Origin: a virus
Reading direction: 5' to 3' (one strand)
Length of the DNA: 58,693 nucleotides
Virus record (IMG/VR): IMGVR_UViG_3300035698_012504
Location: 1 to 58,693 of that record
The translations under genes and the position numbers were made by a program. Below are positions 2,689 to 18,610 of this stretch, piece after piece; position 1 is the first letter of the stretch; every line of letters begins with the position of its first letter. The notes under the pieces are model-generated. The model searched no databases and was not told the origin of the DNA. It saw only the letters and a program-made list of their open reading frames with translations.

Positions 2689-2906
2689 TATACATAGATA
2701 CTATGGATCGTTATATAATTAAGAATTATGATGAGTATGTTAGTAAAATACATACAGACATACTTACCACAATCCAACATAAACTTAATAAAGGTTATGA
2801 TGAGTGGACACACTATGAATACTTTCTTAGTCGTCATCTTATAAGATCTATTAATAGCTCGAACATATGTAGTTGAATATTTGCAAAACAAGGAGTTGTG
2901 GTATGA
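2685..2906 (+). pseudogene. tandem-array family member with an in-frame TGA at 2874-2876; the family tail IFAKQGVVV* continues in the same frame
   Basis: The ORF 2685-2876 lacks the tail. Ten codons further on in the same frame come QGVVV and the ATGA junction to the next gene (2903). Confidence 0.6.
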
Positions 2907-3687: not shown

Positions 3688-3965
3688 TTGTAGATACTAC
3701 TGATATGAAAGAGCTAGGTATTGGTGTATGTATCTCAGAAGGGTTATGGGTAGATACATTTCACACCAAAGATATAATGCTAACTTTATACCGTTATATA
3801 GATGGAGGATCAATTACATCCATAACTAGAGATCAGGCTGAATTGGTCAGACATCATGGTAGAGTATATACATTTGATTTATTTGATACGCATATTATAT
3901 CATCTGCTCATCATAATGGATTAATTACTCCACTCAACATGATAAAGAGAGGGATTGTAATATGA
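3684..3965 (+). CDS. tandem-array small protein family member (93 aa), tail LNMIKRGIVI
   Basis: ATGA overlaps at both ends. N-terminus MIVDTTDM. Confidence 0.85.
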   Translation: MIVDTTDMKELGIGVCISEGLWVDTFHTKDIMLTLYRYIDGGSITSITRDQAELVRHHGRVYTFDLFDTHIISSAHHNGLITPLNMIKRGIVI

Positions 3966-4189
3966 TATTTGACAACGGCAACGAGTTATTATTTGAAGAT
4001 TGTCTACCAGTGTATGATGTGTATTTTAAAATATCTGATGTTTTTGGTATACCCCTCCGTATTAAATTTCCCCTTCCAAAAAATAAATATGGAAATCCCA
4101 AAGTTTTATATTACCTTCCGACGCTCCCTAGAATACATATCTCAATAATATTTAAGTTGATATATTATAGTAAAGGAATTAATATATGA
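3962..4189 (+). CDS. tandem-array family, MIFDN subfamily member (75 aa), tail LIYYSKGINI
   Basis: N-terminus MIFDNGNELLFEDC. Pro-rich centre. ATGA overlaps at both ends. Confidence 0.85.
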   Translation: MIFDNGNELLFEDCLPVYDVYFKISDVFGIPLRIKFPLPKNKYGNPKVLYYLPTLPRIHISIIFKLIYYSKGINI

Positions 4190-4488
4190 TATATGAAGAT
4201 ACTACAGATGCCCTAATGGGGGTGGAATATAATCCCGCAGAAGAATGTATTAAACTTAGCTATGGTAAGGAATCATTTTCACATGTAGATGTTGCTCTTT
4301 ATAGTGATGGTGGATTCGGATTTAGAATATCTAGATACCATTATATGAATATGTTGTCGTGTGTTACAGTAAAACGATCATACCGACAAAGGTTCGAATA
4401 TATATTTAAGACTGGATGCCATGAGCAATTTAGAAAGAAGCGATATGTTAATCTGATGGATATCTTCAACAGAGGAGTTCCTATATAG
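4186..4488 (+). CDS. tandem-array small protein family member (100 aa), tail MDIFNRGVPI
   Basis: ATGA overlap at the start. N-terminus MIYEDTTD. The TAG stop overlaps the next GTG start (TAGTG). Confidence 0.85.
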   Translation: MIYEDTTDALMGVEYNPAEECIKLSYGKESFSHVDVALYSDGGFGFRISRYHYMNMLSCVTVKRSYRQRFEYIFKTGCHEQFRKKRYVNLMDIFNRGVPI

Positions 4489-4712
4489 TGTATGTAGATG
4501 TAAAAGTTAATATGATGCTTAGTGCCGTAATGTACAAAGATGCTGGAGATTTTCGCGACTTGTGTGTTCATAATTATACTAGACCACTAGCCATTAAACC
4601 AATTAGATATAGTGGATATGGTAGGGATATGGGTTATACAGCATACATTAGAGGTTTTAGATTTAAGGACGTATTTAACCAAGTAATGAAGAGAGGAATA
4701 GTATGGAAATAG
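4488..4712 (+). CDS. tandem-array small protein family member (74 aa), tail FNQVMKRGIVWK
   Basis: GTG start overlaps the upstream TAG. The junction reads ATGG instead of ATGA, so the tail runs 2 codons past the thyX ATG. Confidence 0.7.
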   Translation: MYVDVKVNMMLSAVMYKDAGDFRDLCVHNYTRPLAIKPIRYSGYGRDMGYTAYIRGFRFKDVFNQVMKRGIVWK

Positions 4713-5485
4713 TAGAACCGAAAGTATTTTTAATAGCAGAAACTAAATTAGATAATGAGGGCCTTCTTGAATATCTCAAGGATCTTAACGTATTAGATTA
4801 TAGCTGGAGTGCCCCGTCTGATTCAGAGGCGCTATGTGAGATGATGGGAAGATTGTGTTATAGATCATTCAAGCCTGGTCTTAATCCCAATGTTACAAAA
4901 GTAAGGACCGGTAATGATGTATACTTAAAGAACATTATAAACACTGGGCATGGGTCAGTTTTAGAACATGCTAGTGTAAGTTTTATATTCAAAGACGTAT
5001 CTCGAGTATTCACGCATGAGCTTGTTCGACATAGATCAGGGGTAGCTATATCTCAAGAGTCTCTTAGATTCGTTAGGTTAGATAAGCTTAGTGCGTATGT
5101 CCCGATACAGATAGAAGAGAATGAAGAAGCAATGTCTTTGTTCATGGATACGTTTGATAAACTTGAAGAGGTGCAAAAACAACTCGCTGACATTTACGAT
5201 ATAGAGAACACTGATGACTTTGCTAGGAAGAAAGAATTAACCTCTGCATTCAGGAGAGTTGCCCCTATTGGATTAGCAACTACCATAGGGTGGACATGTA
5301 ATATGCGAGCACTAAGACACATAATCGAATTAAGAACTAGCCCACATGCAGAGATAGAACTTAGAGTAGTATTCGCAAAAGTATTTGATATAGTGAAAGA
5401 TAAATACCCTAATATATTTGGAGATTATAAAGTAGAGATGGTAGATGGTATACCGTGGGTGCATACTACGGAGGAGAAGATCTAA
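4703..5485 (+). CDS. thyX: flavin-dependent thymidylate synthase ThyX
   Basis: ThyX signature RHRSGVAISQESLR plus GHGSVLEH. AGAGAGGAA RBS lies inside the upstream tail codons. Confidence 0.9.
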   Translation: MEIVEPKVFLIAETKLDNEGLLEYLKDLNVLDYSWSAPSDSEALCEMMGRLCYRSFKPGLNPNVTKVRTGNDVYLKNIINTGHGSVLEHASVSFIFKDVSRVFTHELVRHRSGVAISQESLRFVRLDKLSAYVPIQIEENEEAMSLFMDTFDKLEEVQKQLADIYDIENTDDFARKKELTSAFRRVAPIGLATTIGWTCNMRALRHIIELRTSPHAEIELRVVFAKVFDIVKDKYPNIFGDYKVEMVDGIPWVHTTEEKI

Positions 5486-5501
5486 CATAAGGTAGTGAAT
5501 T

Positions 5502-5818
5502 ATGATATATGTTACTGGATGTATAAACTCAACGTTTTCTGAAAAGTTGATACATGAATCATTTAATAACATCTTAATATTATTAGACTTCATAGATGAT
5601 GATGATTATATGAATTATATCCTTGAGTATGGTATTAAGATTTATCCAATTTGTCCCATTCGATTTGAACTCTATTTAATTATAGACACTCCCCTCAGAT
5701 AGATATTCATTTCACACAAAGTCCAAAAATATCTGTAGTGTATACTAGTAAAGGTATACGTGTACCAGTCATTAGCTTTCATTTAATTGATATATTTAAG
5801 AGAGGGATAGCCATATAA
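5502..5818 (+). pseudogene. tandem-array family member interrupted by a frameshift (5502-5702 plus 5669-5818), tail IDIFKRGIAI
   Basis: The N-terminus MIYVTG is in one frame. The -1 frame is open from 5669 and ends with the family tail FKRGIAI* at 5816-5818. Confidence 0.55.
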
Positions 5819-5828
5819 AGGAGATAGT

Positions 5829-6077
5829 ATGCACATAGATGAAGACGGATTATACAATGAAGTTGCTCGTTATATTAGAACAAGGAATGATTTATCATTA
5901 GGACTTACTGTTATGAATATAACAAATGGTAAATTATTAATAGTAGTAGTTAATGACCCATCTAATAGAGGAACGCGGTTTAATCATGTAGATAATCTTA
6001 AAGAAATACTACCCAAAGTAATTCATTATTTCATATTAGTGTATATGGATGTTATGAAGGAAGGAATAAATATCTAA
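5829..6077 (+). CDS. tandem-array small protein family member (82 aa), tail MDVMKEGINI
   Basis: AAAGGAG RBS. The stop overlaps the next start as TAATG. Confidence 0.8.
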   Translation: MHIDEDGLYNEVARYIRTRNDLSLGLTVMNITNGKLLIVVVNDPSNRGTRFNHVDNLKEILPKVIHYFILVYMDVMKEGINI

Positions 6078-6451
6078 TGGATATGTATATGAGAACTCCT
6101 TTAATAAGACCATGTAGAGAAGAATATGATCATAGTTTTAGTACGAGAATATGTCACGCATGGATAAGAACTAAAACTAATTCATTTATTCACTTCCAAG
6201 TATCTGTTTCTCCAACTAACTCTACAGACAAATTCAAGCTGATGATGTTTTTGACAACAGATGATAAAATCAATGAAATAGGGACACGGGCATGGGTAGA
6301 AGAAAAACAAATATTAAGTATAGGAGCATCTAGGATGTTTGAATTATACTATGGGACCAGACTACAAAATCCTCTTATCATTCAGGGAATTTTTAAAAAA
6401 GGGGTATGTATCAATTCGAATGATTTTTTAAACGGAGGAATCGATATATGA
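6077..6451 (+). CDS. tandem-array small protein family member (124 aa), tail DFLNGGIDI
   Basis: TAATG overlap at the start and ATGA overlap at the end. Confidence 0.8.
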   Translation: MDMYMRTPLIRPCREEYDHSFSTRICHAWIRTKTNSFIHFQVSVSPTNSTDKFKLMMFLTTDDKINEIGTRAWVEEKQILSIGASRMFELYYGTRLQNPLIIQGIFKKGVCINSNDFLNGGIDI

Positions 6452-6810
6452 TATTTATATCTCCACCAGAAGATGGATTATATTCAGACTCAATTGTTAG
6501 GATAGAGCTTGTACCACACTCATCTAATCGCAGATATAAATTTATTGCTAATATTCCATCTAAACTAGATGATGTTTTATGTTCAATTTACGTCAGAAAA
6601 AAATCCCCATGGTGCCGAGACGATATAATAATAATATCATTCAAGCATCATAGATGTTATTTTCAAATATCTACTTTTAGTGGGTATGAACCAACTAAAG
6701 TATTTACTAAACCTAAAGTACAAACACTAATAACTAAACAGGGATGCAAATCAGAAGAAACTTATAGGGATATGGGTAGAATGTTTAGATGTGGAGGAAT
6801 CTCAATATGA
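6448..6810 (+). CDS. tandem-array small protein family member (120 aa), tail MFRCGGISI
   Basis: ATGA overlaps at both ends. ACGGAGGA upstream. Confidence 0.85.
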   Translation: MIFISPPEDGLYSDSIVRIELVPHSSNRRYKFIANIPSKLDDVLCSIYVRKKSPWCRDDIIIISFKHHRCYFQISTFSGYEPTKVFTKPKVQTLITKQGCKSEETYRDMGRMFRCGGISI

Positions 6811-7037
6811 TATTCGACAACGGTAATAAATTGTTATTTAAAGATTGCTCGTTAGTATATGACTATCTTAAATTATATAATTACATTCACCTTCACCCTC
6901 ACCTTCACCCTCACCTTCACCTTCACCCTCACCCTCACCCTCACCTTCGCCCTCACTCCCGCCTTCCCCTTCACCCTCACCTTCAACCCGAAAAATTATT
7001 TAACTGGGTGTATAATAAAGGAGGAGTTGTGATATGA
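6807..7037 (+). CDS. MIFDN subfamily member with a (His-Leu/His-Pro)n repeat core (76 aa), tail FNWVYNKGGVVI
   Basis: Start moved from 6789 to ATG 6807 (ATGA overlap). Near-identical paralogue at 8556-8786. Confidence 0.85.
   Translation: MIFDNGNKLLFKDCSLVYDYLKLYNYIHLHPHLHPHLHLHPHPHPHLRPHSRLPLHPHLQPEKLFNWVYNKGGVVI
6888..6983 (+). repeat. in-frame hexanucleotide repeat CACCYT (16 units, degenerating at the 3' end) encoding HLHPHLHP...
   Basis: Read directly: cac ctt cac cct cac ctt cac cct ... inside CDS 6807-7037. Confidence 0.9.
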
Positions 7038-7432
7038 TATTTGATACGACGTGTGAATATAACATGTATCAGTATGCATATGGAATGACTACACGTAAGA
7101 ATACAGTGACTAGAGAACATACTAGAATTACTATCCGTTCTCTTAGAGGTTATTGTTTCACATTCGAAAATCTAAGACATCCTCCGAAAGAATATGAAGG
7201 GCATTTTATATCGAGGGACGTTGAAGAGTTTTTAATAATTTATAAAGTAGATAGGATTACAGATGTTTATTACGATTTTATAAGAATAGGGAAAGTAGTG
7301 AGAGGGAAGAATCATTTAGTACGAAATGGAAAGAGAGAAATAATAATAACAACTGGTGTAAATCATACTACATCTGTTCCCAATGTATGTACAATTATAT
7401 TGGCGCTTTGTAGGAAAGGAACAGTCATATGA
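7034..7432 (+). CDS. tandem-array small protein family member (132 aa), tail ILALCRKGTVI
   Basis: ATGA overlaps at both ends. AAAGGAGGAG upstream. Confidence 0.85.
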   Translation: MIFDTTCEYNMYQYAYGMTTRKNTVTREHTRITIRSLRGYCFTFENLRHPPKEYEGHFISRDVEEFLIIYKVDRITDVYYDFIRIGKVVRGKNHLVRNGKREIIITTGVNHTTSVPNVCTIILALCRKGTVI

Positions 7433-7647
7433 TATTTGATAATGATAATAAAATGTTGATCGGAGATCCTACTAAAGCTTATAATACATATTGTTATATT
7501 AATACTCACACATGGGCAATTCAATATCTTAGTATGCATCTTCATACTAAATATCTTAATCTTACTCTTTTCCCACATTCTCGATTCCATCCTAGATTAG
7601 GAACCACATACAAATGGATAATTGAAAATAAAGGGGTCGTGATATGA
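7429..7647 (+). CDS. MIFDN subfamily member (72 aa), tail KWIIENKGVVI
   Basis: N-terminus MIFDNDNKMLIGD. His-rich centre. ATGA overlaps at both ends. Confidence 0.85.
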   Translation: MIFDNDNKMLIGDPTKAYNTYCYINTHTWAIQYLSMHLHTKYLNLTLFPHSRFHPRLGTTYKWIIENKGVVI

Positions 7648-8006
7648 TATTTGAATCGGTTAACATTGATTTGTTTTGGAGAGATGGATTACATTTGAGA
7701 ACATTAAAACATGGTTATACCCACTTCTTTAGAGAAACTTACGTTGATAAAATATTTATGCATGATACATTTATAGGAGATTTATTACTCGAATGTATCC
7801 TTGTCAACCATATAGATTATATAAGAATACGAATTCCAACATTTCCATATAGATCCATGACATATAAATTTGATATGGGTACCGAGATACTCATTCGATT
7901 TGGATCTGGTAATATATTCTGTACGCAGACAAGTAAAAAAGAAGAAAAAATTAAGTGGTTTCAATTTGGAACTTTAGATATCATGACTAGAGGGGTAGTT
8001 ATATGA
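7644..8006 (+). CDS. tandem-array small protein family member (120 aa), tail LDIMTRGVVI
   Basis: ATGA overlaps at both ends. The N-terminus MIFESV is shared with the member at 9960. Confidence 0.85.
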   Translation: MIFESVNIDLFWRDGLHLRTLKHGYTHFFRETYVDKIFMHDTFIGDLLLECILVNHIDYIRIRIPTFPYRSMTYKFDMGTEILIRFGSGNIFCTQTSKKEEKIKWFQFGTLDIMTRGVVI

Positions 8007-8251
8007 TTTATGTATATGATGCATCAGATTCATTACAAGGTATAAGATTAGATGATATTGAATTTTATATATCATCGGATGCAGTATGTGATATGTGTAA
8101 GAGAACAGATATTATGTGTGATAATCAATGTGCTATTTACTTTAATTCATGGCCATTTACAGAGGTGACCAAAGAGTTTTATGTTCCACCACGACCAACC
8201 ATCCCTCTTATGTATAATTGGGTGAGGAGACAGATAGGAGCTGTTGTATGA
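8003..8251 (+). CDS. tandem-array small protein family member (82 aa), tail YNWVRRQIGAVV
   Basis: ATGA overlaps at both ends. The NW tail resembles the MIFDN subfamily. Confidence 0.8.
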   Translation: MIYVYDASDSLQGIRLDDIEFYISSDAVCDMCKRTDIMCDNQCAIYFNSWPFTEVTKEFYVPPRPTIPLMYNWVRRQIGAVV

Positions 8252-8559
8252 TATATTTTACAAATGACACCCAGGGCGGGATGCAACAACATAATATAGA
8301 TGTCTACGTTAAAGATGTGTTACAGTTTTATAGACAAATCTATGATTTTGAACCTTACTATAATATACTAGATCCTATATTAAAGTATGCCCCAATATGT
8401 AGATATACTAGAGATGCTATATTATTTACACAAGAGGTATCCCCTGGTCTTTTTGGGGTTGTGATTAAAGAAGAACATCAAGAATTTCATGGAGTTAAAG
8501 TTACATTGTCTTTTATATGTGGATGGGTAATGCATCAACAACAAGGAGTAATTATATGA
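8248..8559 (+). CDS. tandem-array small protein family member (103 aa), tail VMHQQQGVII
   Basis: Start moved from 8218 to ATG 8248 (ATGA overlap, TAGGAG upstream). Confidence 0.8.
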   Translation: MIYFTNDTQGGMQQHNIDVYVKDVLQFYRQIYDFEPYYNILDPILKYAPICRYTRDAILFTQEVSPGLFGVVIKEEHQEFHGVKVTLSFICGWVMHQQQGVII

Positions 8560-8786
8560 TGTTTGATAACGGTAATAAATTGTTATTTAAAGATTGCTCG
8601 TTAGTATATGACTATCTTAAATTATATGATTACATTCACCTTCACCTTCACCTTCACCCTCACCTTCACCCTCACCTTCACCTTCTCCCTCACCTTCTCC
8701 CTCACCCCCGCCTTTCCCTTCACCCTCACCTTCAACCCGAAAAATTATTTAACTGGGTGTATAATAGAGGAGGAGTAATAATATAA
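8556..8786 (+). CDS. MIFDN subfamily member with a (His-Leu/His-Pro)n repeat core (76 aa), tail FNWVYNRGGVII
   Basis: Start moved from 8517 to ATG 8556 (ATGA overlap). Near-identical to 6807-7037. Confidence 0.85.
   Translation: MMFDNGNKLLFKDCSLVYDYLKLYDYIHLHLHLHPHLHPHLHLLPHLLPHPRLSLHPHLQPEKLFNWVYNRGGVII
8637..8732 (+). repeat. in-frame hexanucleotide repeat CACCYT (second copy)
   Basis: cac ctt cac ctt cac ctt cac cct ... Same length and register as 6888-6983. Confidence 0.9.
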
Positions 8787-9139
8787 TGTATGTAGATTGT
8801 ATGGATAAGGATATTTATCCAGAAGCCATTTAATTAGGATGTTCAAATACATATGATAAGAGTGGAGATACATGCGATCTAATGTTTTGCAACTTCAGTG
8901 AAAAACATCCATATGAATTTCTTATGAAATTAGGAATATCTGATATAAGAATAAAAATATCATATCCAGTTGGAGAGCGAAGAGTAGTTAATTTAATGAT
9001 ACTTGGACTAAAGAGCGGTGATGGAATATATGTAAAGTTCAGCGCACTGAAGACAATAACAATTATGTCTGAAGATGGGGAACGCAAATGGAATGATTAC
9101 ATGGGTTGGTTTTTACAGCAAGGTATATATATTAAATAG
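8786..9139 (+). pseudogene. tandem-array family member with an in-frame TAA at 8831-8833, tail WFLQQGIYIK
   Basis: The TAATG-coupled start gives MYVDCMDKDIYPEAI*. The same frame then continues without further stops into ORF 8882-9139. Total length is 118 codons, typical of the family. Confidence 0.55.
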
Positions 9140-9182
9140 TGACAGAAGGAATCTATTTCACACAACCAAAAAGGAGAGAAGT

Positions 9183-9692
9183 GTGAAGAATATTCATTGG
9201 CCCAAGGCGTGCATCTATATTTTTCTTTTACTGTTTTTATTACTTGCTAATGGGGAAATTGTAGGCGAGTTGAAAAGACCTATAATAGAATCCCAATTGA
9301 GTGCTGCGATAACAATTCCAGTTGTTATATTAGGTTTAAGTCAGAGCATATTCTTGGGATGGCTCATCGGGGCCATCGTCTGCTCATCTATAGGATTTAT
9401 GAATAATCCAATTGAACGTGTAATTGAAGAATTTGATAAAAAAGGAATACGAGCATATTATACAAATATGATATCTTTTTACGGGCTCATTATATTAACA
9501 CCATATAATTTATTTCTGTACTTTTGGCCAGTAGACGCAACTACTACGTTTATATTTGGAAACATTATGTTTTGGGCTGTATCTAGTATTATAATTTATA
9601 AGAATCTATGGGAGAACGTGAAGATTGACAACTTGGTTAAGGAGTGGTTCTTATGCAAGCCCTATCAGATATGTTTAAAATCTCAAAGCTAG
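9183..9692 (+). CDS. multi-pass membrane protein (169 aa) embedded in the array
   Basis: GTG start 9183 preceded by AAAAGGAGAG. Several hydrophobic segments (IYIFLLLFLLLA, ITIPVVILGLSQSIFLGWLIGAIV, GLIILTPYNLFLYFW, IMFWAVSSIIIY). ORF-track start 9075 rejected. Confidence 0.65.
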   Translation: MKNIHWPKACIYIFLLLFLLLANGEIVGELKRPIIESQLSAAITIPVVILGLSQSIFLGWLIGAIVCSSIGFMNNPIERVIEEFDKKGIRAYYTNMISFYGLIILTPYNLFLYFWPVDATTTFIFGNIMFWAVSSIIIYKNLWENVKIDNLVKEWFLCKPYQICLKSQS

Positions 9693-9949
9693 CAGTCGCT
9701 GTATTCATTCTAATAAATGTACTACATGTATTGATGTTTGTTGTAGCTATACCTATAGTAGTTATGTTGTACACTAAACTTAAGCTTATGGGAACTATCC
9801 CAGAGGATGGGATTATACCACTTATAGTATTATTTGGGGGTGGTGCTACTGTTGGCTTAGCATTTTCGTCTATGAAAAAGAAAATTTTAGAGTGTGTGGT
9901 ACCTGAATCTATGCATAATGAAAATAACCCGATAGTGGATGAACTATAA
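9653..9949 (+). CDS. small membrane protein (98 aa), two predicted TM helices
   Basis: ATG 9653 lies 8 nt after AAGGAG. Hydrophobic stretches LAVAVFILINVLHVLMFVVAIPIVVML and IIPLIVLFGGGATVGLAF. Confidence 0.65.
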   Translation: MQALSDMFKISKLAVAVFILINVLHVLMFVVAIPIVVMLYTKLKLMGTIPEDGIIPLIVLFGGGATVGLAFSSMKKKILECVVPESMHNENNPIVDEL

Positions 9950-9959
9950 GGATAAATCC

Positions 9960-10289
9960 ATGATATTTGAATCTGTTAAATCTATTAGCCCATTTAATAG
10001 TAGTAATATAACTAAATACCCATTTGGAGAATCTTTAGTAACATGTCAAGTAGATTATAATCTTAGAAAGAAGTTTAGGATAGGGATAACTGTAATAAAT
10101 CATAACACATATTATAAAGAAAAGGTAATTGTGATTTCCTATTTCCAAACAGATGGTAAGATTAGAAGTGCTGAAATAGGGCCTATACAAAAATCATCAT
10201 TTAGATCCTATTTTACCACTAAAATTATTACACATGGTGAAATCATTAATGCTTTTCTTAAACTGACGGGTAATGGAATAAGTATATGA
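9960..10289 (+). CDS. tandem-array small protein family member (109 aa), tail FLKLTGNGISI
   Basis: Start moved from 9939 to ATG 9960 (MIFESV, as in member 7644). ATGA overlap at the 3' end. Confidence 0.8.
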   Translation: MIFESVKSISPFNSSNITKYPFGESLVTCQVDYNLRKKFRIGITVINHNTYYKEKVIVISYFQTDGKIRSAEIGPIQKSSFRSYFTTKIITHGEIINAFLKLTGNGISI

Positions 10290-10611
10290 TAGTAGATGGG
10301 TTAATCATGGGATCCAACTCATCAGAAGTTAGACTTCAAAAAATGATAATATCTGGTAGCCTCAAACCAGGACAAGAATATATATCTATTATTGATCTTA
10401 CAAAAAAAGAGTAGTATTTTTCATTAGATTTTATGGTGCGCTGGTCTCAGGGCCATTTGATCCACATCAATCCTATATCTCGGTGAGCAGATACATAGAG
10501 ATCGTAGATGTAGACGGTGGATTTAAATTAAAATATATACGAGAAAAATTTAAAACACTATTGATTGGAAATCTATACATTATGATATCGAAACGAGGGA
10601 TTCTAATATAA
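10286..10611 (+). pseudogene. last array member, split at an A7 tract: 10286-10414 (42 codons) plus the -1 frame 10396-10611 ending in the family tail YIMISKRGILI
   Basis: ATGA-coupled start MIVDGL. The 0-frame stops at TAG 10412. The -1 frame is open from 10396 and carries the tail. The joined length is about 108 codons. Confidence 0.6.
10402..10408 (+). other. A AAA AAA slippery heptamer / homopolymer (candidate -1 frameshift or indel site)
   Basis: The 0-frame reads aca aaa aaa gag tag. Phasing fits X XXY YYZ, with a 0-frame stop 1 codon downstream. Confidence 0.5.
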
Positions 10612-10621
10612 AGGAGAGAAA

Positions 10622-11548
10622 ATGACAGGCCGTAATGTAGATATCGCGGAACTATTATCTAGAGTAAAATCAACACTCTCTACTAATGTAGATGAGACTA
10701 TTGACATTCCTACCATTGCTGAACCAGAACCACCGAGGGCAAAGAAGTCTACAATTTCTAGAATTAAAGATAGTGGGTTATCCATAATATTAAATCCAAA
10801 GAATATATTGGGTCGATATAGAGTTAGACCAAATCATAGATTGTCTGCTTTGGGAGTAGATGCCGAGGATATACCATCTGTTAATAAATTTGAAAGAATA
10901 GATAGTATTTTTAGAAATGATAATGAGCACGATAGAATTGATATTGAGCTACTTCAATTAAAGATGGATCTCGCAGCAGGTACAGTAAAAGCAGTTGAAC
11001 CCAAATCATCAGAGAAGGTGATATATTTATCCCCTACTGTCCCTAGTGAACTTGATAGCTCATTATACTCATATGATGATCAAGAAGATCAATTAATGGA
11101 ATTTTCAAAATACTATTGCGAATGCGCCATTGAGAATGGATGGAAGATATTATTAAATACATCAAGTGCTGATCCAATAATATGGAGAAAACTTAGAGAT
11201 ATGTTTGGAGATAATATAATCCTAGCAGATGGTAATAGTCTGCGTCAAAGTGTAGTAGATAATGGATGTAAAATATTATTCATTGCAGGAGGAAGTACAG
11301 GAGCAGTTAACGATATTGAACGGATATATGATGAATGGAATACATATCAGTGTGGAAGCACAATTATATATCATGCCGTTTCATTTGGCGGAGTATATGA
11401 TGTGAATGGCGAAATAATTTATTCTCTTGGAGGAGAAGGAGTAGAATATATAAGGGACATTACAGATTCTCGTCATAGATCTCCAATGAGTAGAGCTATT
11501 ATGAGTAAGTTTTTTGAATTTGTCACAGAAAGATACTCTAGGTTTTAG
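10622..11548 (+). CDS. hypothetical protein (308 aa)
   Basis: AAAGGAGAG RBS. Long ORF with no recognisable motif. Confidence 0.75.
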   Translation: MTGRNVDIAELLSRVKSTLSTNVDETIDIPTIAEPEPPRAKKSTISRIKDSGLSIILNPKNILGRYRVRPNHRLSALGVDAEDIPSVNKFERIDSIFRNDNEHDRIDIELLQLKMDLAAGTVKAVEPKSSEKVIYLSPTVPSELDSSLYSYDDQEDQLMEFSKYYCECAIENGWKILLNTSSADPIIWRKLRDMFGDNIILADGNSLRQSVVDNGCKILFIAGGSTGAVNDIERIYDEWNTYQCGSTIIYHAVSFGGVYDVNGEIIYSLGGEGVEYIRDITDSRHRSPMSRAIMSKFFEFVTERYSRF

Positions 11549-11560
11549 GAGAGAAACGCA

Positions 11561-12328
11561 ATGAGAAGGAAAGAAGTGTTTGTCATAGGGCTTGGAAATC
11601 CTGGGAACGCGGCCTCAATAGATTCTAGGCATAACGTTGGACAACTTGCCGTCGGTAGAGCACTTGCAATATATGGTGACTTACGTCCTCCAGGATCTGA
11701 GTCTCATAGGGACCGAATACAAAATGAAGATATTAAATTAAAATTGAGAAGAGCACCTATGTCAGTAAAAGATACAAGTATATTAAAATTTGGAGAGAAT
11801 CGAAGATCATATAAATATTACAGATCAACCGTGCTGCTCTATGGAATGACCATCAATTTTATAGAACCGGTTAATGTATATATGAACAGTTCTGGAAGAT
11901 TTATACGTGCGCTTAGATTAGATACAGATGAGTTTCTAGAAAATTTACTTATTATTCATGATGATATAGATTTACCAATTGGACGAGTGAGATTCCGTAC
12001 TGGGGGAGGGGACGGGGGACACAATGGAATAAAGAATATACGAGTAAATTTAGGAGATGATTTCTCTAGATTAAAAGTAGGAGTTGGAAGACCAACAGAT
12101 GATACAGTAGAACAATATCTAACTAGAGAAATGTCACTTAAACATAGGAAGCATATTAATAAGGTAATAGATACTATATTGAAAAAGTGTATGCTCGATT
12201 GGGCATTATATGGAACAGCGCATTGTTCTGTTAAGTACAACAAACTATTTGTTAATGGAAGTGGTAATGTTACTACATGGAAGAAACATCAAAAGGAGCT
12301 TGAAGAACTTGTGCGAAAAGAAGTCTGA
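11561..12328 (+). CDS. pth: peptidyl-tRNA hydrolase (255 aa, with an insertion and a C-terminal extension)
   Basis: Pth motifs VIGLGNPG..SRHNVG and HDDIDLPIGRVRFRTGGGDGGHNGIKNI. Confidence 0.85.
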   Translation: MRRKEVFVIGLGNPGNAASIDSRHNVGQLAVGRALAIYGDLRPPGSESHRDRIQNEDIKLKLRRAPMSVKDTSILKFGENRRSYKYYRSTVLLYGMTINFIEPVNVYMNSSGRFIRALRLDTDEFLENLLIIHDDIDLPIGRVRFRTGGGDGGHNGIKNIRVNLGDDFSRLKVGVGRPTDDTVEQYLTREMSLKHRKHINKVIDTILKKCMLDWALYGTAHCSVKYNKLFVNGSGNVTTWKKHQKELEELVRKEV

Positions 12329-12356
12329 AGACACACCAACTAATGCATTAAAAGAA

Positions 12357-12839
12357 ATGATTGAAAAACGCGGGGAGATATCTGGAATGGCCCAAAAGAG
12401 CTCCAATGTAATAAGAATAATGATGTCTCTATTGGCATCAAGAGCATTGGATGTTTCAAATTCTATGGCAGCCCTTCATGCAGTGAATGATTTGTATGAC
12501 GGCGACACAGAAGAAGCTATGAAAAGTAGACGGAATGAGTATGTGAAACAATATCTATTAGCAGTTAAGTCATTTAAATCATTAGAAAGAAAAATACATG
12601 ACGATGTTGCTCCAACATTTTTTGATAATGTTGCAGTGCTTTTTCCAGATGAAATATTCACGTTGTTCCGAGATGAGATGTTAGTATATAAGGAAAGAGA
12701 ATTAGGGTTACCTGTTGACCCATCAGAAGTCCCATCACTTGATGAAATGAGAGCATTCTTTAATGTATTTCCAGAAGAGTCATTACGAAGTAGTATAAAT
12801 GATAGTTTTAGTCCACTTACTGGATCAGATGAAGATTAA
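12357..12839 (+). CDS. hypothetical protein; start uncertain (12357 or 12387)
   Basis: ORF-track start 12210 would overlap pth by 119 nt. ATG 12387 has GGGGAG upstream. Confidence 0.6.
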   Translation: MIEKRGEISGMAQKSSNVIRIMMSLLASRALDVSNSMAALHAVNDLYDGDTEEAMKSRRNEYVKQYLLAVKSFKSLERKIHDDVAPTFFDNVAVLFPDEIFTLFRDEMLVYKERELGLPVDPSEVPSLDEMRAFFNVFPEESLRSSINDSFSPLTGSDED

Positions 12840-12854
12840 GAAGTAATTATTCGT

Positions 12855-12886
12855 GTCTGGGGCTCTCTAGTTAGAGGGTCCCAGAC
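12855..12886 (+). terminator. stem-loop (14 bp including 2 G-U pairs, 4-nt loop) after a stop codon
   Basis: GTCTGGGGCTCTCT agtt AGAGGGTCCCAGAC. No clear U-tract. Confidence 0.45.
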
Positions 12887-12900
12887 ATAATTAGCAGTAT

Positions 12901-12930
12901 CAACAATAAATATATTATTTTTTATTGTTG
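12901..12930 (+). terminator. perfect 10-bp inverted repeat CAACAATAAA/TTTATTGTTG with a 10-nt T-rich loop
   Basis: Read directly. AT-rich stem, so it may be a terminator or an operator. Confidence 0.35.
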
Positions 12931-12939
12931 AAAATATAA

Positions 12940-12949
12940 TGAGGACAAA
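12940..12949 (+). promoter_or_regulatory. TGAGGACAAA motif, site 1 (47 nt upstream of ATG 12996)
   Basis: Identical 10-mer at 37518, 43814 and 56005. Three of the four sites are in the rare intergenic gaps. Confidence 0.45.
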
Positions 12950-12995
12950 CTATTAGATGTATGATAGTTCGAAGTTACAATGTGAGGAGAGTAAA

Positions 12996-13595
12996 ATGAA
13001 AAGAATCTTAGCAAGTTTTCTTATTGTAATCGCCAGTATATTTATACTATCTGGTTGCAAAACGCCATCAGCGGTCCAAGATGCGAATCAGGTATCGATA
13101 ATGTATCTACATTTAATTCAAGAGGATGTAAATATTACAATTGATGCATTGTCTGAAGCAGCTAAAGAAGAATCTACAAGATATTATGATTTATGGTTAG
13201 AGGGTACTGAGAAATTAATTATCAGCAATTCAATGACTCCACAAGAAGCCATAGATGATTATAAAACAGCATTAGAGAGCGCAGCCACTCAGGTAGATGC
13301 CGCCAGTGACACGTATGACGATCTATCAAGAGAAATAAAGAGCGAAATTCAGAATAAAATAGTTAGAGCACAGAAATTAGCAGAGAAAATAGCAGAATAT
13401 CATCAAAGTGGTAGCATTTCGGCTGAAGATTTTGATGAAATTCTAAATGAAAGTGCAGAATTTGCAATTGAGATGGCAGAAGTAAGAAAAAATAGAGAAA
13501 AAGCCGTTGAATCTGCAAATGATGGCAAAGGTAGTGATTTATTGAATATTATTAAAAATAATGTGCTAAAAGGAATGGTTCCTAAAGAAAAATAG
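12996..13595 (+). CDS. lipoprotein (signal peptide with lipobox LSGC), helical and acidic
   Basis: MKRILASFLIVIASIFILSG|C. GAGGAGAG RBS. ORF-track start 12957 rejected. Confidence 0.75.
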   Translation: MKRILASFLIVIASIFILSGCKTPSAVQDANQVSIMYLHLIQEDVNITIDALSEAAKEESTRYYDLWLEGTEKLIISNSMTPQEAIDDYKTALESAATQVDAASDTYDDLSREIKSEIQNKIVRAQKLAEKIAEYHQSGSISAEDFDEILNESAEFAIEMAEVRKNREKAVESANDGKGSDLLNIIKNNVLKGMVPKEK

Positions 13596-13611
13596 GAAAA
13601 AGGAGTAGAAA

Positions 13612-13911
13612 ATGGATGAAAGTTTAGTTGATTTAATTGCTGAATCTCTTATTGCAGTGGCCAAGGGCGTCGCCGTAGAAGAAAAGAAGGTAGTAGCTGA
13701 TAAGAGCTATCTAAATGCTCCTGAGTGGACTCCACCGGCCTCTGTGGTGAACGTAAAGCTAACAGAAGACCCTTTGTCAAAAGAGGAATACCAGGGATTA
13801 CTAGATAGGGTGGACGTTGCTATCGAACAAGAGACAGCACTGAAGGAAGGTCTATCAATCGCTGCTGAAGTACTAAATAAATTAAAAACAGTACTCCCAT
13901 TATTTATATAA
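13612..13911 (+). CDS. hypothetical protein (99 aa)
   Basis: AAAGGAG RBS. Confidence 0.7.
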   Translation: MDESLVDLIAESLIAVAKGVAVEEKKVVADKSYLNAPEWTPPASVVNVKLTEDPLSKEEYQGLLDRVDVAIEQETALKEGLSIAAEVLNKLKTVLPLFI

Positions 13912-13925
13912 CTGAGGTAAGTAAT

Positions 13926-14189
13926 ATGTATGTATCCGAACAATTCATAAATAATTTACAAGAGAAGGGGCGCTTTGTTAGGGTTGCTAAGAAGCTATTC
14001 AAAAAGAAAAAACCTGAAGCACCACCTCCACCAAAAGGCATTAAAGAAAAACTTCAGCGTAAGTTTGCATCAATGAAAAATAATGCTGCTGAAAAAGCGA
14101 AAAAGAAAAAGAGAAAAAATACTATGCATGCGACAGCTGGAGTCGGAGTAGTTGGGATGGCTGCATTAGGAGCCCAAGACAGGCACTAA
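13926..14189 (+). CDS. MY[IV]SE-family small protein: Lys-rich with a Gly-rich hydrophobic C-terminus (87 aa)
   Basis: N-terminus MYVSEQFINNL is shared with 43963, 49862 and 53000. C-terminus ATAGVGVVGMAALGA. Confidence 0.7.
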   Translation: MYVSEQFINNLQEKGRFVRVAKKLFKKKKPEAPPPPKGIKEKLQRKFASMKNNAAEKAKKKKRKNTMHATAGVGVVGMAALGAQDRH

Positions 14190-14211
14190 AATATTAAGGT
14201 AGGATTTTAAA

Positions 14212-15132
14212 ATGAGTAATGATTATAGAATATTTATTCACGTTGATGGAAATAGTCCTGGAGAATATACATATGGAGATTTATATTTTGAATATAAACC
14301 ATATTATATAGAGCGGACTAATAATGGTAAAACATTATTTGCACAAACCGCATCAGTAGAAGGAAAGTCTGCTTACTTAGATCCAGGCCATCCTGATAGA
14401 TCGTCTATTACAAATTATACAATTGAAGATAGAAGCTCTGTTAAAACCCTACGAGTTAGAGCATCTAGATCAGATGATGGATTGAGGTTGGAAAAACATA
14501 TCACAATACATCCCCCAAAATCCAGCAGTCTCGATAAAGGACAATATCATCGAGGTGCTCATGTAAAAGTATCTATAAATTATGACAATACAAAATATTC
14601 ATTAGTTGGTTGGAAAAAAGATGGAATTTTATGGTTAGAAACAACTGGGGATTCATCTAGTGTATACACTAACGACAATATCAAAATAGAGATGAATAGT
14701 AATATAACATTAGAGGCCTTATTTGTAGAGCAACCGGAAGCGGTGTTAAATAATAATGGGTCAATTACACAGACAGACACCCACTCTACAAGCGGTGTCT
14801 TAAATAAATTAGGTACGTTTGATTCTGGAGGAGTAGTTGTAGATCAACTGATGGCATCAGTGTCATCAAATGTGTTTGATCATCCTGGAACAGTAATTAG
14901 AAGTCCGTTAGTTCTAAACTATCAAGGTCCATATACTGCACTCGAATCATTAAGTATAAAAGAAGAAATAGTTCAAACGATAGGTAGAAAAAATAGTACA
15001 GCTGGTGGACCACTAATTAATAGGGGCGATCTAACTGTACTTGAAACAAGAGAACAATCTTGTAGACTGCTATATCCCGCTAGTGAAAGTGAATTTAGAT
15101 CCTGTATGGGTGACTTATACAATCAACTTTAG
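14212..15132 (+). CDS. hypothetical protein (306 aa)
   Basis: AAGGTAGGA RBS. Long ORF. Confidence 0.75.
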   Translation: MSNDYRIFIHVDGNSPGEYTYGDLYFEYKPYYIERTNNGKTLFAQTASVEGKSAYLDPGHPDRSSITNYTIEDRSSVKTLRVRASRSDDGLRLEKHITIHPPKSSSLDKGQYHRGAHVKVSINYDNTKYSLVGWKKDGILWLETTGDSSSVYTNDNIKIEMNSNITLEALFVEQPEAVLNNNGSITQTDTHSTSGVLNKLGTFDSGGVVVDQLMASVSSNVFDHPGTVIRSPLVLNYQGPYTALESLSIKEEIVQTIGRKNSTAGGPLINRGDLTVLETREQSCRLLYPASESEFRSCMGDLYNQL

Positions 15133-15142
15133 GAGGAATTTA

Positions 15143-16684
15143 ATGAGTTGGGTTTCACATAGACTAATTATGCATAATGACCCTAATACGTCCTTATCGC
15201 TCAATGTCTATCTCGAATCAGGAGTATTTGTTGAGAACGTTGGATACGAAAAGAAAAACTATGTTCCTGTTCGGTTAATGTTTCAAATAGTAGAATTTAA
15301 GAAAGAAACTAATTACTCTAAAATAGAACTTAATTATCCTGAACTAGTAGAATTGAATAGTAAAATTAGTAGGGCGTTGAGAAAACTTGACATCCTCTAC
15401 GATAATAAAGAAAAAATAACTATTGCGAAGTATACAGCGAAAGCTAAAAAACTTTTAACATTCACATTTAAAAGAAATCAAAATAAAGAGGGTGGAATAT
15501 CTATTAAGATAGATGACCAGAATGGTTCATTTGAAATAATGTTATCATTCACTACATTCCTGACTATAACTGAAGCGTTATCATCCATGGTAAGCAACTT
15601 CCCAGTTGTCTCTACAAATATGATGATAATTTCAAATCAAGAAAGAATACTAGAGTCGTTAGATAGGTTAGGATCCATACAACCAATCGCTACACCTCGA
15701 CCCGAACGACAACAAGAAAAAGTAATAGCAACCTCTAGTGCTGATGACTTCGATATAGTTAAAGAAGAGCCTAAAGTTGCAGCATCCTCTGGATTTGATG
15801 TGGAGGGGTTAGACCTCGACGCACTTAAAACTCAAATCACTGACGGGATAACCGATGGGATAGAGGACGAAGTATCTGATGACCGGTTTTTTCGGGTAGT
15901 ACTTAAAAATGATTTAACTAATCTAAAAAGTTGGACGACTTCTGTGCTCTGTACAGGAAAAGACACAGAAGCTATCATGTTTAGTCCATTATATGCATTA
16001 TTACGCAGTTCAATGAGTTTTAAAGATTTTAGTGAGCTTGAATTTAGAAAATCCTTCTTTAGTTATCAAGCAACACTACTAAAAGAAATTAAAGATCGTT
16101 CATTAAAGTATGTTTCGGGGGAATCTAAAGGATTTGGTATAATTCCCAACTATTCATTGAATTTTACAACTTCAGAATCGAAAAAAGTTTTTAGAACTGC
16201 ATTAGAATTATTCACTACCTTAGTAATTTATAGTAAAATAGCAATAGAAATATCTAGAATTAACAACTATGAAGTTAAAAATGATGCAGATGGTTATATC
16301 ATCGCACAATTTATACTAAATTCGACATTATCCCCACTAATAAAATCAATTTCAGAGAATTATAGAGATAAATTCTTAATGGATGCACTAAATCAGTTCA
16401 TTAGCATAAATGAATCAAGTATCATGACTAAAATTAGTACCGAATTTAATCAAATAACTGGTAAAAATTTATCAATTTCTGTCAAAGAATTCGAAATTAT
16501 GGCTGAAAAGCTAATCAATTCAGCTGAAAATAACAAAGATATAGAAGTTTTTCAAGAAAATATAACAAATATCGAAGATGTAAGGGATTTCTTTAATTCT
16601 ATTGAAGAAATAGAAGAAGATGATGTCCCTGAAGAAGAATTTCAAGTAGATACAATGGAAATTTTAAAAATAATGGATGAATAA
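15143..16684 (+). CDS. hypothetical protein (513 aa) with an acidic central linker
   Basis: ATG 15143 lies 5 nt after TAGGAGGA. ORF-track start 15041 overlaps the upstream gene. Confidence 0.75.
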   Translation: MSWVSHRLIMHNDPNTSLSLNVYLESGVFVENVGYEKKNYVPVRLMFQIVEFKKETNYSKIELNYPELVELNSKISRALRKLDILYDNKEKITIAKYTAKAKKLLTFTFKRNQNKEGGISIKIDDQNGSFEIMLSFTTFLTITEALSSMVSNFPVVSTNMMIISNQERILESLDRLGSIQPIATPRPERQQEKVIATSSADDFDIVKEEPKVAASSGFDVEGLDLDALKTQITDGITDGIEDEVSDDRFFRVVLKNDLTNLKSWTTSVLCTGKDTEAIMFSPLYALLRSSMSFKDFSELEFRKSFFSYQATLLKEIKDRSLKYVSGESKGFGIIPNYSLNFTTSESKKVFRTALELFTTLVIYSKIAIEISRINNYEVKNDADGYIIAQFILNSTLSPLIKSISENYRDKFLMDALNQFISINESSIMTKISTEFNQITGKNLSISVKEFEIMAEKLINSAENNKDIEVFQENITNIEDVRDFFNSIEEIEEDDVPEEEFQVDTMEILKIMDE

Positions 16685-16690
16685 TTACAA

Positions 16691-17314
16691 ATGTCTTTCA
16701 AATCGAAAATATTAAACATAAAGTTATCCCCAATGTGTAACAGGTCTCTTGTTTATACTACGTACCCTGCTGGTGTTCCAGTACATTTCTCTGTTAAGTT
16801 TCACAAAACTAACCCAGGGATTCAATTTGACGTTGGGAATAAAAACAAGGTTATAGAATCAGGAGAGGCAGTTGTTCGGATGTTTAGAAATCTGAACAAC
16901 TGTCTGTTCTGTAACATATTCTTAGATCTTGAGACTATACAGACAGGTAAACATGACTATAAAAATAGGTTTTCTTCGGTAAGGAAGCACTATAAAGATA
17001 AAGTCTTTAGATTCATAAATGAAAGATTAGATTTACATAGTAGTAATAATGGAAAAAATAGTTATCATAATAGTATAGGTGTATCGGGATGGAAAATCCA
17101 TGGGCTGGAGGATGACCTACTTTTTTATTTCGTTCAAAGAAACTTTTTCAATAAGATAACTGCAACAAATATAATAAGAACTGCAGGATTACAGTTCTCC
17201 ACGGCTAGAGGATTGAAATCTTTAGAAAATTATAAAGATGACTCTGAAAACTTCTTTAGAAAAGTTAATGAAAGTGATAATATGCAATTTCTTAATGAGG
17301 CTTTCAAAGAATAG
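16691..17314 (+). CDS. hypothetical protein (207 aa)
   Basis: Long ORF packed tightly against its neighbours. Confidence 0.7.
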   Translation: MSFKSKILNIKLSPMCNRSLVYTTYPAGVPVHFSVKFHKTNPGIQFDVGNKNKVIESGEAVVRMFRNLNNCLFCNIFLDLETIQTGKHDYKNRFSSVRKHYKDKVFRFINERLDLHSSNNGKNSYHNSIGVSGWKIHGLEDDLLFYFVQRNFFNKITATNIIRTAGLQFSTARGLKSLENYKDDSENFFRKVNESDNMQFLNEAFKE

Positions 17315-17323
17315 GAGAATATA

Positions 17324-18589: not shown

Positions 18590-18610
18590 GAGAGATTTGG
18601 AGAATAAATA

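What the first reader, a model, noticed from the sequence alone, without database searches (positions are those of the whole stretch)
10286..10611. The last array member is split at a canonical A AAA AAA slippery site; a -1 shift restores the family tail
The ATGA-coupled ORF 10286-10414 (MIVDGL...IIDLTKKE*) has no family tail. The -1 frame is open from 10396 and runs to 10611, ending ...LYIMISKRGILI*, a perfect family tail followed by the RBS of the next gene. The two frames overlap exactly at aca aaa aaa gag tag (A7 at 10402-10408). This is X XXY YYZ in the correct phase, with a 0-frame stop one codon later. A -1 shift gives a product of about 108 aa, the typical family length.

Three readings are possible:
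- programmed -1 ribosomal frameshifting or transcriptional slippage, yielding two products;
- a phase-variable homopolymer;
- a 1-nt indel or sequencing error.
Basis: partly seen in the sequence, partly recalled or inferred. Interest (0 to 1): 0.65.

Follow-up and report, generated by a model that had tools for sequence, protein, structure and literature searches.

The report
Frameshift-split small phage gene at A7
One small gene in a phage's array of about 31 coupled small genes is split into two reading frames at a run of seven A's; this is most likely an ordinary one-base deletion, not a programmed frameshift, because four sister genes are also broken and no frameshift-stimulating signal is present.

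Summary
ORF 10286-10414 (42 aa) stops one codon after an in-phase A_AAA_AAA (10402-10408). The -1 frame is open from 10396 to 10611 and ends in the array's tail motif (KRGILI*), just before the next gene's RBS. Head and tail belong to one gene: they share a significant 21-aa internal repeat, conserved at the protein level.

A sequencing error is unlikely. The ENA and JGI contigs read are identical to the window at the site, and all four contigs on record encode the same truncated 42-aa product.

Evidence for programmed recoding is thin:
- The heptamer is the only signal. There is no downstream structure (z 0.36 and 0.03), no upstream SD and no Rfam element.
- A>=7 runs occur at the rate expected from composition (37 observed, 37.6 expected).
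- Twelve other in-phase A7 heptamers sit inside intact genes.
- Four other cassettes carry single lesions: two -1 shifts without a slippery heptamer and two in-frame TGAs.

No homologue of this gene, its neighbour or the family exists in any collection searched, so conservation cannot be tested.

Best reading: a 1-nt deletion (A8 to A7) in a decaying accessory gene, with at most low-level incidental slippage (confidence 0.65). Programmed -1 ribosomal frameshifting: about 0.15. The array itself is the more unusual object.

The parts
10286..10414 (+). Head ORF in the 0 frame, 42 aa (MIVDGL...DLTKKE*). Its start is ATGA-coupled to the stop of the preceding member (9960-10289). It has the family head (MIVD) but no family tail.
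10402..10408 (+). A7 run, in phase as A_AAA_AAA (acA AAA AAA). It lies in the only stretch where both frames are open (10396-10411), so it is the likely site of the 1-nt deletion or of any slippage.
10412..10414 (+). 0-frame stop TAG, one codon after the heptamer.
10393..10395 (+). TGA that closes the -1 frame upstream. It sets the 5' limit of the 16-nt stretch in which the frames can be joined.
10396..10611 (+). Open -1 frame of 71 codons ending ...LYIMISKRGILI* (family tail, TAA 10609-10611). It has no ATG, GTG or TTG before GTG 10483, and that GTG has no SD, so the tail cannot be made on its own.
   Evidence: sequence read
10328..10390 (+). Internal repeat unit 1 (VRLQKMIISGSLKPGQEYISI), in the 0 frame.
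10423..10485 (+). Internal repeat unit 2 (IRFYGALVSGPFDPHQSYISV), in the -1 frame. Its similarity to unit 1 shows that head and tail are parts of one gene.
10612..10624 (+). Independent SD (AGGAGAG) and the ATG of the next gene (10622-11548, 308 aa, no homologues). Downstream expression does not depend on translation of the tail.

Best explanation
Positions 10286-10611 are one cassette of a phage array of small, translationally coupled genes. The cassette once encoded a protein of about 108 aa containing two copies of a roughly 32-aa repeat. It has lost one base, most likely A8 to A7 at 10402-10408, a homopolymer where indels are favoured.

Ribosomes entering from the ATGA-coupled start now stop at TAG 10412 and make a 42-aa fragment. 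The remaining 67 codons, including the family tail, are not translated, except in the small fraction of transcripts or ribosomes that slip by chance on the A7. The lesion is real and fixed in the sampled population. It looks recent, because the tail frame carries no second lesion. It is one of five single-lesion cassettes among about 31, so the array is undergoing ordinary gene decay or loss-of-function selection.

Shown: the anatomy, the unity of head and tail, the absence of stimulators, the reproducibility of A7 and the other broken cassettes.
Inferred: the direction of the mutation (A8 to A7), its recency and the low level of leak.
For: 1. Head and tail belong to one gene.
- A 21-aa repeat is shared between the 0-frame head and the -1-frame tail. 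Its Smith-Waterman score is 45, against 20.7 +/- 3.9 for shuffles, and 0 of 5000 shuffles reach it.
- Codon-position identities are 8, 15 and 7 of 21, so the conservation is at the protein level.
- The repeat unit is absent from all other cassettes.

2. The frames can be joined only within 10396-10411, and 7 of those 16 bases are the A-run.

3. The tail has no start of its own.

4. No frameshift stimulator was found.
- The downstream folds have z 0.36 and 0.03. The only hairpin is about 5 bp and starts more than 30 nt away.
- There is no SD-like sequence upstream.
- There is no Rfam element.

5. A7 is ordinary in this genome.
- 37 runs are observed against 37.6 expected.
- Twelve other in-phase A_AAA_AAA heptamers lie inside intact genes, including the ribonucleotide reductase and two sister cassettes. 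Their -1 extensions are only 2-16 codons.

6. Four other cassettes are interrupted once each.
- Two need a -1 shift and have no slippery heptamer: 1756-1965 with its tail to 2126, and 5502-5702 with its tail to 5818.
- Two have an in-frame TGA: 2874-2876 and L005:9412-9414.

7. Published base rates and mechanism.
- Among clustered prokaryotic frame transitions, 4010 clusters were pseudogenes and 146 were recoding candidates (PMC3711429).
- In E. coli, A_AAA_AAA is much less shift-prone than A_AAA_AAG, and efficient transcriptional slippage needs about 9 A or T (PMC5009743).
- Bacterial RNA polymerase needs at least 7 T, and more A than that (PMC6260861).
Against: - The heptamer is in the correct phase, with a 0-frame stop one codon later. 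This is what a programmed site looks like. By chance about a third of A7 runs are in phase.
- The tail frame has stayed free of stops for 67 codons. The other two frameshifted cassettes are likewise clean two-frame structures. This is expected if the tails are still translated, or if all the lesions are recent.
- All three frameshifted cassettes need a shift in the same direction (-1).
- No intact A8 homologue could be found to prove the ancestral state.
- The host and the transcribing polymerase are unknown. A T7-like RNA polymerase slips on much shorter A-runs (PMC6260861).
Confidence: 0.65

Rival explanations
1. Programmed -1 ribosomal frameshifting at A_AAA_AAA. A set fraction of ribosomes slips back one base and makes the 108-aa protein alongside the 42-aa one, and both products are used.
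For: - The heptamer is canonical and in the right phase, and the 0-frame stop follows one codon later.
- The -1 frame is long and clean and ends in the family tail.
- The tail has no start of its own.
- Some proven bacterial sites lack a known stimulator, for example the A_AAA_AAC site of an IS cluster (PMC4066793).
Against: - There is no downstream structure within the usual 5-9 nt and no upstream SD.
- Twelve other in-phase A7 heptamers lie in intact genes, which would be costly if A7 alone were efficient.
- A7 runs are neither enriched nor avoided.
- Four sister cassettes are broken at non-slippery places.
- Conservation cannot be tested, because there are no homologues.
Confidence: 0.15
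2. Transcriptional slippage used as the means of expression. The RNA polymerase adds an extra A on the A7 template run, so part of the mRNA population carries A8 and encodes the full protein. The C. rodentium tssM1 A11 tract works this way.
For: - One added A restores the frame exactly (sequence).
- Phage T7 RNA polymerase slips on runs as short as 3 A (PMC6260861).
- An interrupted gene rescued in this way is documented (PMC4256274).
Against: - Seven A's are below the roughly 9 needed for efficient slippage by bacterial RNA polymerase (PMC5009743; PMC6260861).
- There is no GC-rich nascent-RNA hairpin 5' adjacent to the run.
- 36 other A>=7 runs lie mostly in intact genes and would be hit equally.
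- No single-subunit RNA polymerase was recognised among the large ORFs tested.
Confidence: 0.05
3. Phase-variable homopolymer. The A-run changes length at the DNA level within the phage population and switches the gene on and off.
For: Homopolymers are the classic substrate for slipped-strand mispairing. The gene is an accessory one and could be under fluctuating selection.
Against: - The ENA and JGI contigs read show A7, and all four contigs on record carry the same 42-aa product.
- No A5, A8 or A11 in-frame product exists among 15 billion proteins.
- Every overlapping contig, from at least 7 samples, is 100% identical to the window.
- Seven A's is short for a contingency tract (general knowledge).
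- Consensus assemblies would hide minor variants, so the test is incomplete.
Confidence: 0.05
4. An out-of-frame deletion fused two neighbouring paralogous cassettes. The head and the tail would come from different genes, and the A-run would be incidental.
For: - The array shows recent duplication (6805-7027 and 8554-8776 are 94% identical).
- The conserved junctions could promote recombination.
Against: - The repeat unit shared by head and tail occurs in no other cassette.
- The fused length of 108 aa is typical of a single cassette.
- No junction remnant lies between head and tail.
Confidence: 0.05
5. Sequencing or assembly error in a homopolymer. The real genome would have A8.
For: Homopolymers are error-prone on some platforms.
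Against: - The window, an ENA MEGAHIT-style contig (k141_424224, 74.8 kb) and a JGI contig are identical at the site. Four contigs on record encode the truncated product, and none encodes a fused one.
- It could not be verified that these assemblies come from different read sets.
Confidence: 0.02

Closest known systems
IS3-family (IS911, IS150) orfA-orfB and E. coli dnaX programmed -1 frameshift sites
   Same: An A-rich X_XXY_YYZ heptamer in phase, a 0-frame stop shortly after it, and a fusion product made in the -1 frame.
   Different: Those sites use A_AAA_AAG together with a downstream stem-loop or pseudoknot and often an upstream SD-like element, and they are conserved across many homologues. 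Here the heptamer is A_AAA_AAA, no stimulator was found, and no homologue exists to test conservation.
Citrobacter rodentium tssM1 (A11) and Thermus dnaX (A9/T9) transcriptional slippage
   Same: A gene interrupted right after a poly-A run, with its frame restored by one added A.
   Different: Those runs are 9-11 nt and slippage was shown experimentally (PMC4256274; PMC5009743). Here the run is 7 nt, no longer than 36 other runs in the same 58.7 kb.
'Savior indel' with low-level compensatory frameshifting (herpes simplex thymidine kinase G7 run)
   Same: A homopolymer indel knocks a gene down while chance slippage leaves a trace of full-length product (PMC5009743). This is the closest match to what I think happens here.
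   Different: In herpes virus the selective agent (the drug) and the leak are measured. Here both are inferred.
Ordinary frameshifted pseudogenes in prokaryotic genomes (GeneTack pseudogene clusters)
   Same: A single indel splits one gene into two frames. This is by far the commonest cause of frame transitions: 4010 pseudogene clusters against 146 recoding clusters (PMC3711429).
   Different: No intact orthologue is available here to confirm the assignment.

Membership tests
Programmed -1 ribosomal frameshift site (bacterial/phage type) | Slippery heptamer X_XXY_YYZ in phase with the upstream frame | tested here: met
   acA AAA AAA at 10402-10408 is in phase. However, 12 other in-phase A7 heptamers lie in intact genes.
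Programmed -1 ribosomal frameshift site (bacterial/phage type) | Downstream stimulatory stem-loop or pseudoknot about 5-9 nt after the heptamer | tested here: not met
   Folds of 10409-10480 and 10380-10530 have z 0.36 and 0.03. The only hairpin is about 5 bp and starts more than 30 nt downstream. Pseudoknots were not modelled explicitly. No Rfam element was found.
Programmed -1 ribosomal frameshift site (bacterial/phage type) | Upstream SD-like stimulator about 10-14 nt before the site (as in dnaX and the IS elements) | tested here: not met
   The upstream sequence ...tatatctattattgatcttac contains no GGAG, AGGA or GAGG.
Programmed -1 ribosomal frameshift site (bacterial/phage type) | Two-frame arrangement and shift site conserved among diverged homologues | tested here: inconclusive
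   No homologue was found in 5.8 billion clusters, in 1.84 billion representatives, in GenBank phages or in IMG/VR. All contigs carrying the gene are 100% identical.
Programmed -1 ribosomal frameshift site (bacterial/phage type) | Trans-frame protein detected at a defined ratio | not testable with these tools
   This needs a reporter assay or proteomics.
Programmed transcriptional slippage | Run of about 9 or more A/T, or a shorter run with a 5'-adjacent nascent-RNA hairpin | tested here: not met
   The run is 7 nt and has no adjacent GC-rich inverted repeat. The thresholds come from PMC5009743 and PMC6260861.
Phase-variable (contingency) homopolymer | Tract length varies among genomes or reads of the same population | tested here: not met
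   A7 is present in the window and in the ENA and JGI contigs. Four contigs encode the same 42-aa product, and no in-frame variant is on record. Read-level heterogeneity was not testable.
Frameshifted gene (mutational lesion / pseudogene) | The two frames are parts of one ancestral coding sequence | tested here: met
   The internal repeat spans both frames (0 of 5000 shuffles reach its score), is conserved at the protein level and is unique to this gene. Head, tail and the 108-aa length are typical of the array.
Frameshifted gene (mutational lesion / pseudogene) | The downstream part has no independent translation start | tested here: met
   The first ATG, GTG or TTG in the -1 frame is GTG 10483, and it has no SD.
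Frameshifted gene (mutational lesion / pseudogene) | An intact version exists in relatives | tested here: inconclusive
   No relatives exist in any collection searched.
Frameshifted gene (mutational lesion / pseudogene) | The context shows relaxed constraint, with other disrupted paralogues | tested here: met
   Four further cassettes carry single lesions.

The most novel reading that the evidence does not exclude
The A7 could be a genuine recoding site, ribosomal or transcriptional, that sets a fixed ratio of a 42-aa and a 108-aa product from the last cassette. More broadly, the five singly interrupted cassettes (three -1 shifts, two in-frame TGAs) might all be expressed by recoding, because each keeps a clean downstream frame. 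That would make the array a phage locus that uses several recoding events to tune accessory proteins.
Probability: 0.15. Interest if true: 0.55.

Novelty: already known. Interest (0 to 1): 0.25.

Why it matters
If the best explanation holds, the site is an ordinary homopolymer lesion. Its main practical value is for annotation: 10286-10611 should be marked as one interrupted gene, not as a 42-aa gene plus an empty 200-nt gap.

It also shows that this array of orphan, translationally coupled small genes is losing members. That is expected of fast-evolving accessory genes, possibly ones that interact with the host or counter its defences.

If the site instead proved to be programmed, it would be a stimulator-free A_AAA_AAA frameshift in a phage accessory gene. 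That would be of moderate interest.

Tried and rejected
Searches for relatives
- GenBank phages were searched by megablast, blastn and tblastn. Nothing was found apart from E of about 5 noise.
- IMG/VR was searched with the fused protein, with the 308-aa neighbour and with a junction/head DNA pattern. Nothing was found.
- JGI metagenome contigs were scanned with a pattern that tolerates A5-A10. There were no matches, even though a JGI contig with this sequence exists. That collection evidently does not hold this sample, so the result says nothing.
- The word-indexed protein search with the fused protein, the neighbour and the MIFDNGNK subfamily profile returned only self hits.
- The exhaustive HMMER search with the fused protein returned the 42-aa ORF itself plus three long repeat proteins: two fungal NACHT-WD40 proteins and an M23 peptidase with roughly 106-aa repeats.

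A lead that failed its control
- The alignments to those repeat proteins cross the frameshift junction and at first looked like support for contiguity.
- A profile of the M23 protein's repeats scored the fused protein no better than 2 of 200 shuffles did. I do not count this as evidence.

Other negative results
- The AlphaFold single-sequence model has mean pLDDT 47.8. A beta-hairpin spanning the junction is only a hint, and no fold search was run.
- Pfam and PHROGs gave no hits for the fused protein or for the other cassettes tested.
- The cassette bodies are not similar to each other; only heads and tails are shared.
- Promoter, terminator, Rfam and tRNA scans found nothing relevant, and in particular no suppressor tRNA for the in-frame TGAs.
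- Neither of the other two -1-split cassettes has a slippery heptamer. I saw only an in-phase A_AAG at 1932-1935 and a U_UUA at 5675-5678, which is within chance expectation.

Full report
**1. What is there**

The window is part of a large, AT-rich phage genome (31% G+C) with all genes on the + strand. It encodes a ribonucleotide reductase, ThyX, a homing endonuclease, glycosyltransferases and a peptidyl-tRNA hydrolase.

An array of small ORFs runs from about 1 kb upstream of the window (L005:9032) to window position 10611. Each ORF starts at an ATG that overlaps the previous stop (ATGA). The members share two features only:
- a head, MI[FYV][DE];
- a tail of about 12 residues, roughly ..LDIxKRG[VI][VI]I*.

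Their bodies are not similar to one another. The tail codons carry the Shine-Dalgarno sequence (AGGAG) and the spacing for the next ATG. A simple tail pattern hits 28 times in 1-10611 and only twice, spuriously, in the remaining 48 kb.

**2.

- ORF 10286-10414 is ATGA-coupled to the preceding member. It reads MIVDGL...IIDLTKKE*.
- The A7 run is at 10402-10408, in the phase acA AAA AAA.
- The -1 frame is closed by TGA 10393-10395. It is then open from 10396 to TAA 10609-10611 and ends LYIMISKRGILI*. The SD and ATG of the next gene follow directly.
- The two frames are both open only over 10396-10411, and 7 of those 16 bases are the A-run.
- The -1 frame has no ATG, GTG or TTG before GTG 10483, and no SD precedes that GTG. 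The tail therefore cannot be made independently.
- An open stretch of 67-71 codons has p of about 0.002 in this composition. The 12 other in-phase A7 heptamers have -1 extensions of only 2-16 codons.

**3. Head and tail are one gene**

Residues 15-35 of the head (VRLQKMIISGSLKPGQEYISI, 10328-10390, 0 frame) align with IRFYGALVSGPFDPHQSYISV (10423-10485, -1 frame).
- The Smith-Waterman score is 45, against 20.7 +/- 3.9 for shuffles. None of 5000 shuffles reaches it, and the other two downstream frames score 15 and 16.
- Over 21 aligned codon pairs, taken one codon upstream of these limits but in the same register, identity is 8, 15 and 7 of 21 at codon positions 1, 2 and 3. The similarity has therefore been kept at the protein level, not by recent DNA duplication.
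- No other cassette contains this unit; the best score is 27.

This supports a single ancestral gene of about 108 aa with an internal duplication. It argues against a fusion of two unrelated cassettes.

**4. Not a sequencing artefact, but no comparative signal**

- The 42-aa product is called on four contigs. The two shown, an ENA contig of 74.8 kb and a JGI contig of 8.7 kb, are identical to the window at the site.
- The ENA contig overlaps the window only over window positions 1-18657, by my arithmetic on the coordinates. It is therefore a different assembly.
- No A5, A8 or A11 in-frame product is on record among about 15 billion proteins.
- All contigs of this phage, from at least seven samples, are 100% identical where they overlap the window. 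There is thus no diversity to exploit.
- The fused protein, the 308-aa neighbour and the best-defined subfamily of the array have no homologues outside this phage.

The conservation test for programmed recoding cannot be run.

**5. Tests for a programmed site**

- Downstream RNA structure: none. The z-scores are 0.36 and 0.03. The only small hairpin starts more than 30 nt after the heptamer, whereas known stimulators sit 5-9 nt away.
- Upstream SD-like element: none.
- Known RNA elements: none.
- A-runs are not special in this genome. There are 37 runs of A>=7 against 37.6 +/- 5.4 expected.
- Thirteen of these runs give in-phase A_AAA_AAA heptamers, and 12 of the 13 lie inside intact genes. 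These include the ribonucleotide reductase and two sister cassettes (3498-3504 and 6597-6603). If A7 alone were an efficient shift site in this host, those genes would pay for it.
- From the literature: in E. coli, A_AAA_AAA is much less shift-prone than A_AAA_AAG. Efficient transcriptional slippage needs about 9 A or T (PMC5009743). Bacterial RNA polymerase needs at least 7 T, and more A than that, although T7 RNA polymerase slips on far shorter runs (PMC6260861).

**6. The array contains other broken members**

Four further cassettes have a proper coupled head and a proper tail separated by one lesion:
- 1756-1965, with its tail in the -1 frame to 2126;
- 5502-5702, with its tail in the -1 frame to 5818;
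- an in-frame TGA at 2874-2876, nine codons before the tail ending at 2906;
- an in-frame TGA at L005:9412-9414.

Neither of the other two frameshifted cassettes has a slippery heptamer in the overlap of its frames. About 5 of 31 cassettes therefore carry a single disabling change. At that rate (roughly 0.15 lesions per cassette), about 0.3 cassettes would be expected to carry two lesions, so finding none is unremarkable. This background makes a mutational origin of the A7 split the default.

**7. Weighing the readings**

In favour of programming:
- the heptamer is in the right phase (about one A7 in three is, by chance);
- the 0-frame stop is close (about 17% by chance);
- the tail frame is clean.

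Against programming:
- there is no stimulator;
- in-phase A7 heptamers are common in intact genes;
- other cassettes are broken at non-slippery sites;
- the published base rate is low: 4010 pseudogene clusters against 146 recoding clusters (PMC3711429).

My estimates:

| Reading | Probability |
|---|---|
| Real 1-nt deletion in a former A8, giving a truncated 42-aa product with at most incidental low-level restoration | about 0.65 |
| Programmed -1 ribosomal frameshifting | about 0.15 |
| Programmed transcriptional slippage | about 0.05 |
| Phase variation | about 0.05 |
| Out-of-frame fusion of two cassettes | about 0.05 |
| Sequencing error | about 0.02 |

**8. A lead that did not hold**

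The exhaustive HMMER search returned WD40-repeat proteins and an M23 peptidase with internal repeats. Their alignments cross the junction. A profile of the peptidase repeats scored the fused protein no better than 2 of 200 shuffles did, so this is not counted. The AlphaFold single-sequence model is of low confidence (pLDDT 47.8).

**9. Comparison with known systems, and novelty**

The site looks like an IS3-type or dnaX-type -1 site in its heptamer and stop placement only. It fails the stimulator criteria, and the conservation criterion cannot be tested. It is too short for the known transcriptional-slippage cases (A9-A11). It works most like a 'savior' or plain homopolymer indel with a possible trace of compensatory slippage.

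The finding is therefore an ordinary kind of feature, and I score its interest at 0.25. The unusual object is the array itself: about 31 orphan cassettes with conserved coding junctions that double as coupling signals, found in a phage with no relatives in any collection searched.

Noticed in passing
L005:9032 to window 10611 (window 1-10611): About 31 small ORFs (roughly 60-150 aa) are chained by ATGA overlaps. They share only a head (MI[FYV][DE]) and a tail of about 12 aa (..LDIxKRG[VI][VI]I*), and the tail codons hold the SD for the next gene. Their bodies are unrelated, and none has a homologue outside this phage. The conserved junction of about 45 nt could act both as a coupling signal and as a recombination site for cassette shuffling.
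   Followed up: partly
window 1756-2126; 5502-5818; 2685-2906; L005:9316-9660: Four other cassettes are interrupted once each. Two need a -1 shift and have no slippery heptamer. Two have an in-frame TGA (2874-2876 and L005:9412-9414), both followed by ATA. All keep clean downstream frames and proper tails.
   Followed up: partly
window 6805-7027 and 8554-8776: Two cassettes are 94% identical at the DNA level. They encode His-Pro-Leu repeats (HLHPHLHP...). The repeat region is also open in a second + frame (TFTFTLTF...) and on the - strand (KVRVKV...). This is a recent duplication within the array.
   Followed up: no
window 11561-12328: The phage encodes a peptidyl-tRNA hydrolase (PF01195) two genes downstream of the array. 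This enzyme recycles peptidyl-tRNA dropped from ribosomes. Its position next to about 30 short, coupled ORFs may not be a coincidence, but that is speculation.
   Followed up: no
whole window: TGA stops are almost confined to ATGA overlaps. They end 13 of 17 long ORFs in the array but only 5 of 57 elsewhere, and 4 of those 5 are ATGA overlaps. The other genes end in TAA (30) or TAG (22).
   Followed up: partly
window 4489-4499 and 8787-8797: The two tails that end in TAG or TAA without coupling (4488 and 8786) are both followed by the same TGTATGTAGAT. Separately, the tails at 5818 and 10611 are both followed by AAGGAGA and an uncoupled ATG 10-11 nt after the stop.
   Followed up: no
window 4703-5485: The thyX gene sits inside the array. 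It is joined to the preceding tail by ATGG instead of ATGA, so the upstream ORF runs two codons further (…KRGIVWK*).
   Followed up: no
window 40573-43803 and 46574-48415: The ribonucleotide reductase ORF is 1076 aa and matches the PHROG profile in two stretches, so it may contain an insertion or an intein. A 613-aa homing/HNH endonuclease lies nearby.
   Followed up: no
whole window; L001-L010: The phage has no nucleotide or protein relatives in GenBank phages or IMG/VR. Even so, contigs 100% identical to it occur in at least seven ENA, JGI and Logan samples, which suggests a clonal population in one sampled environment.
   Followed up: partly
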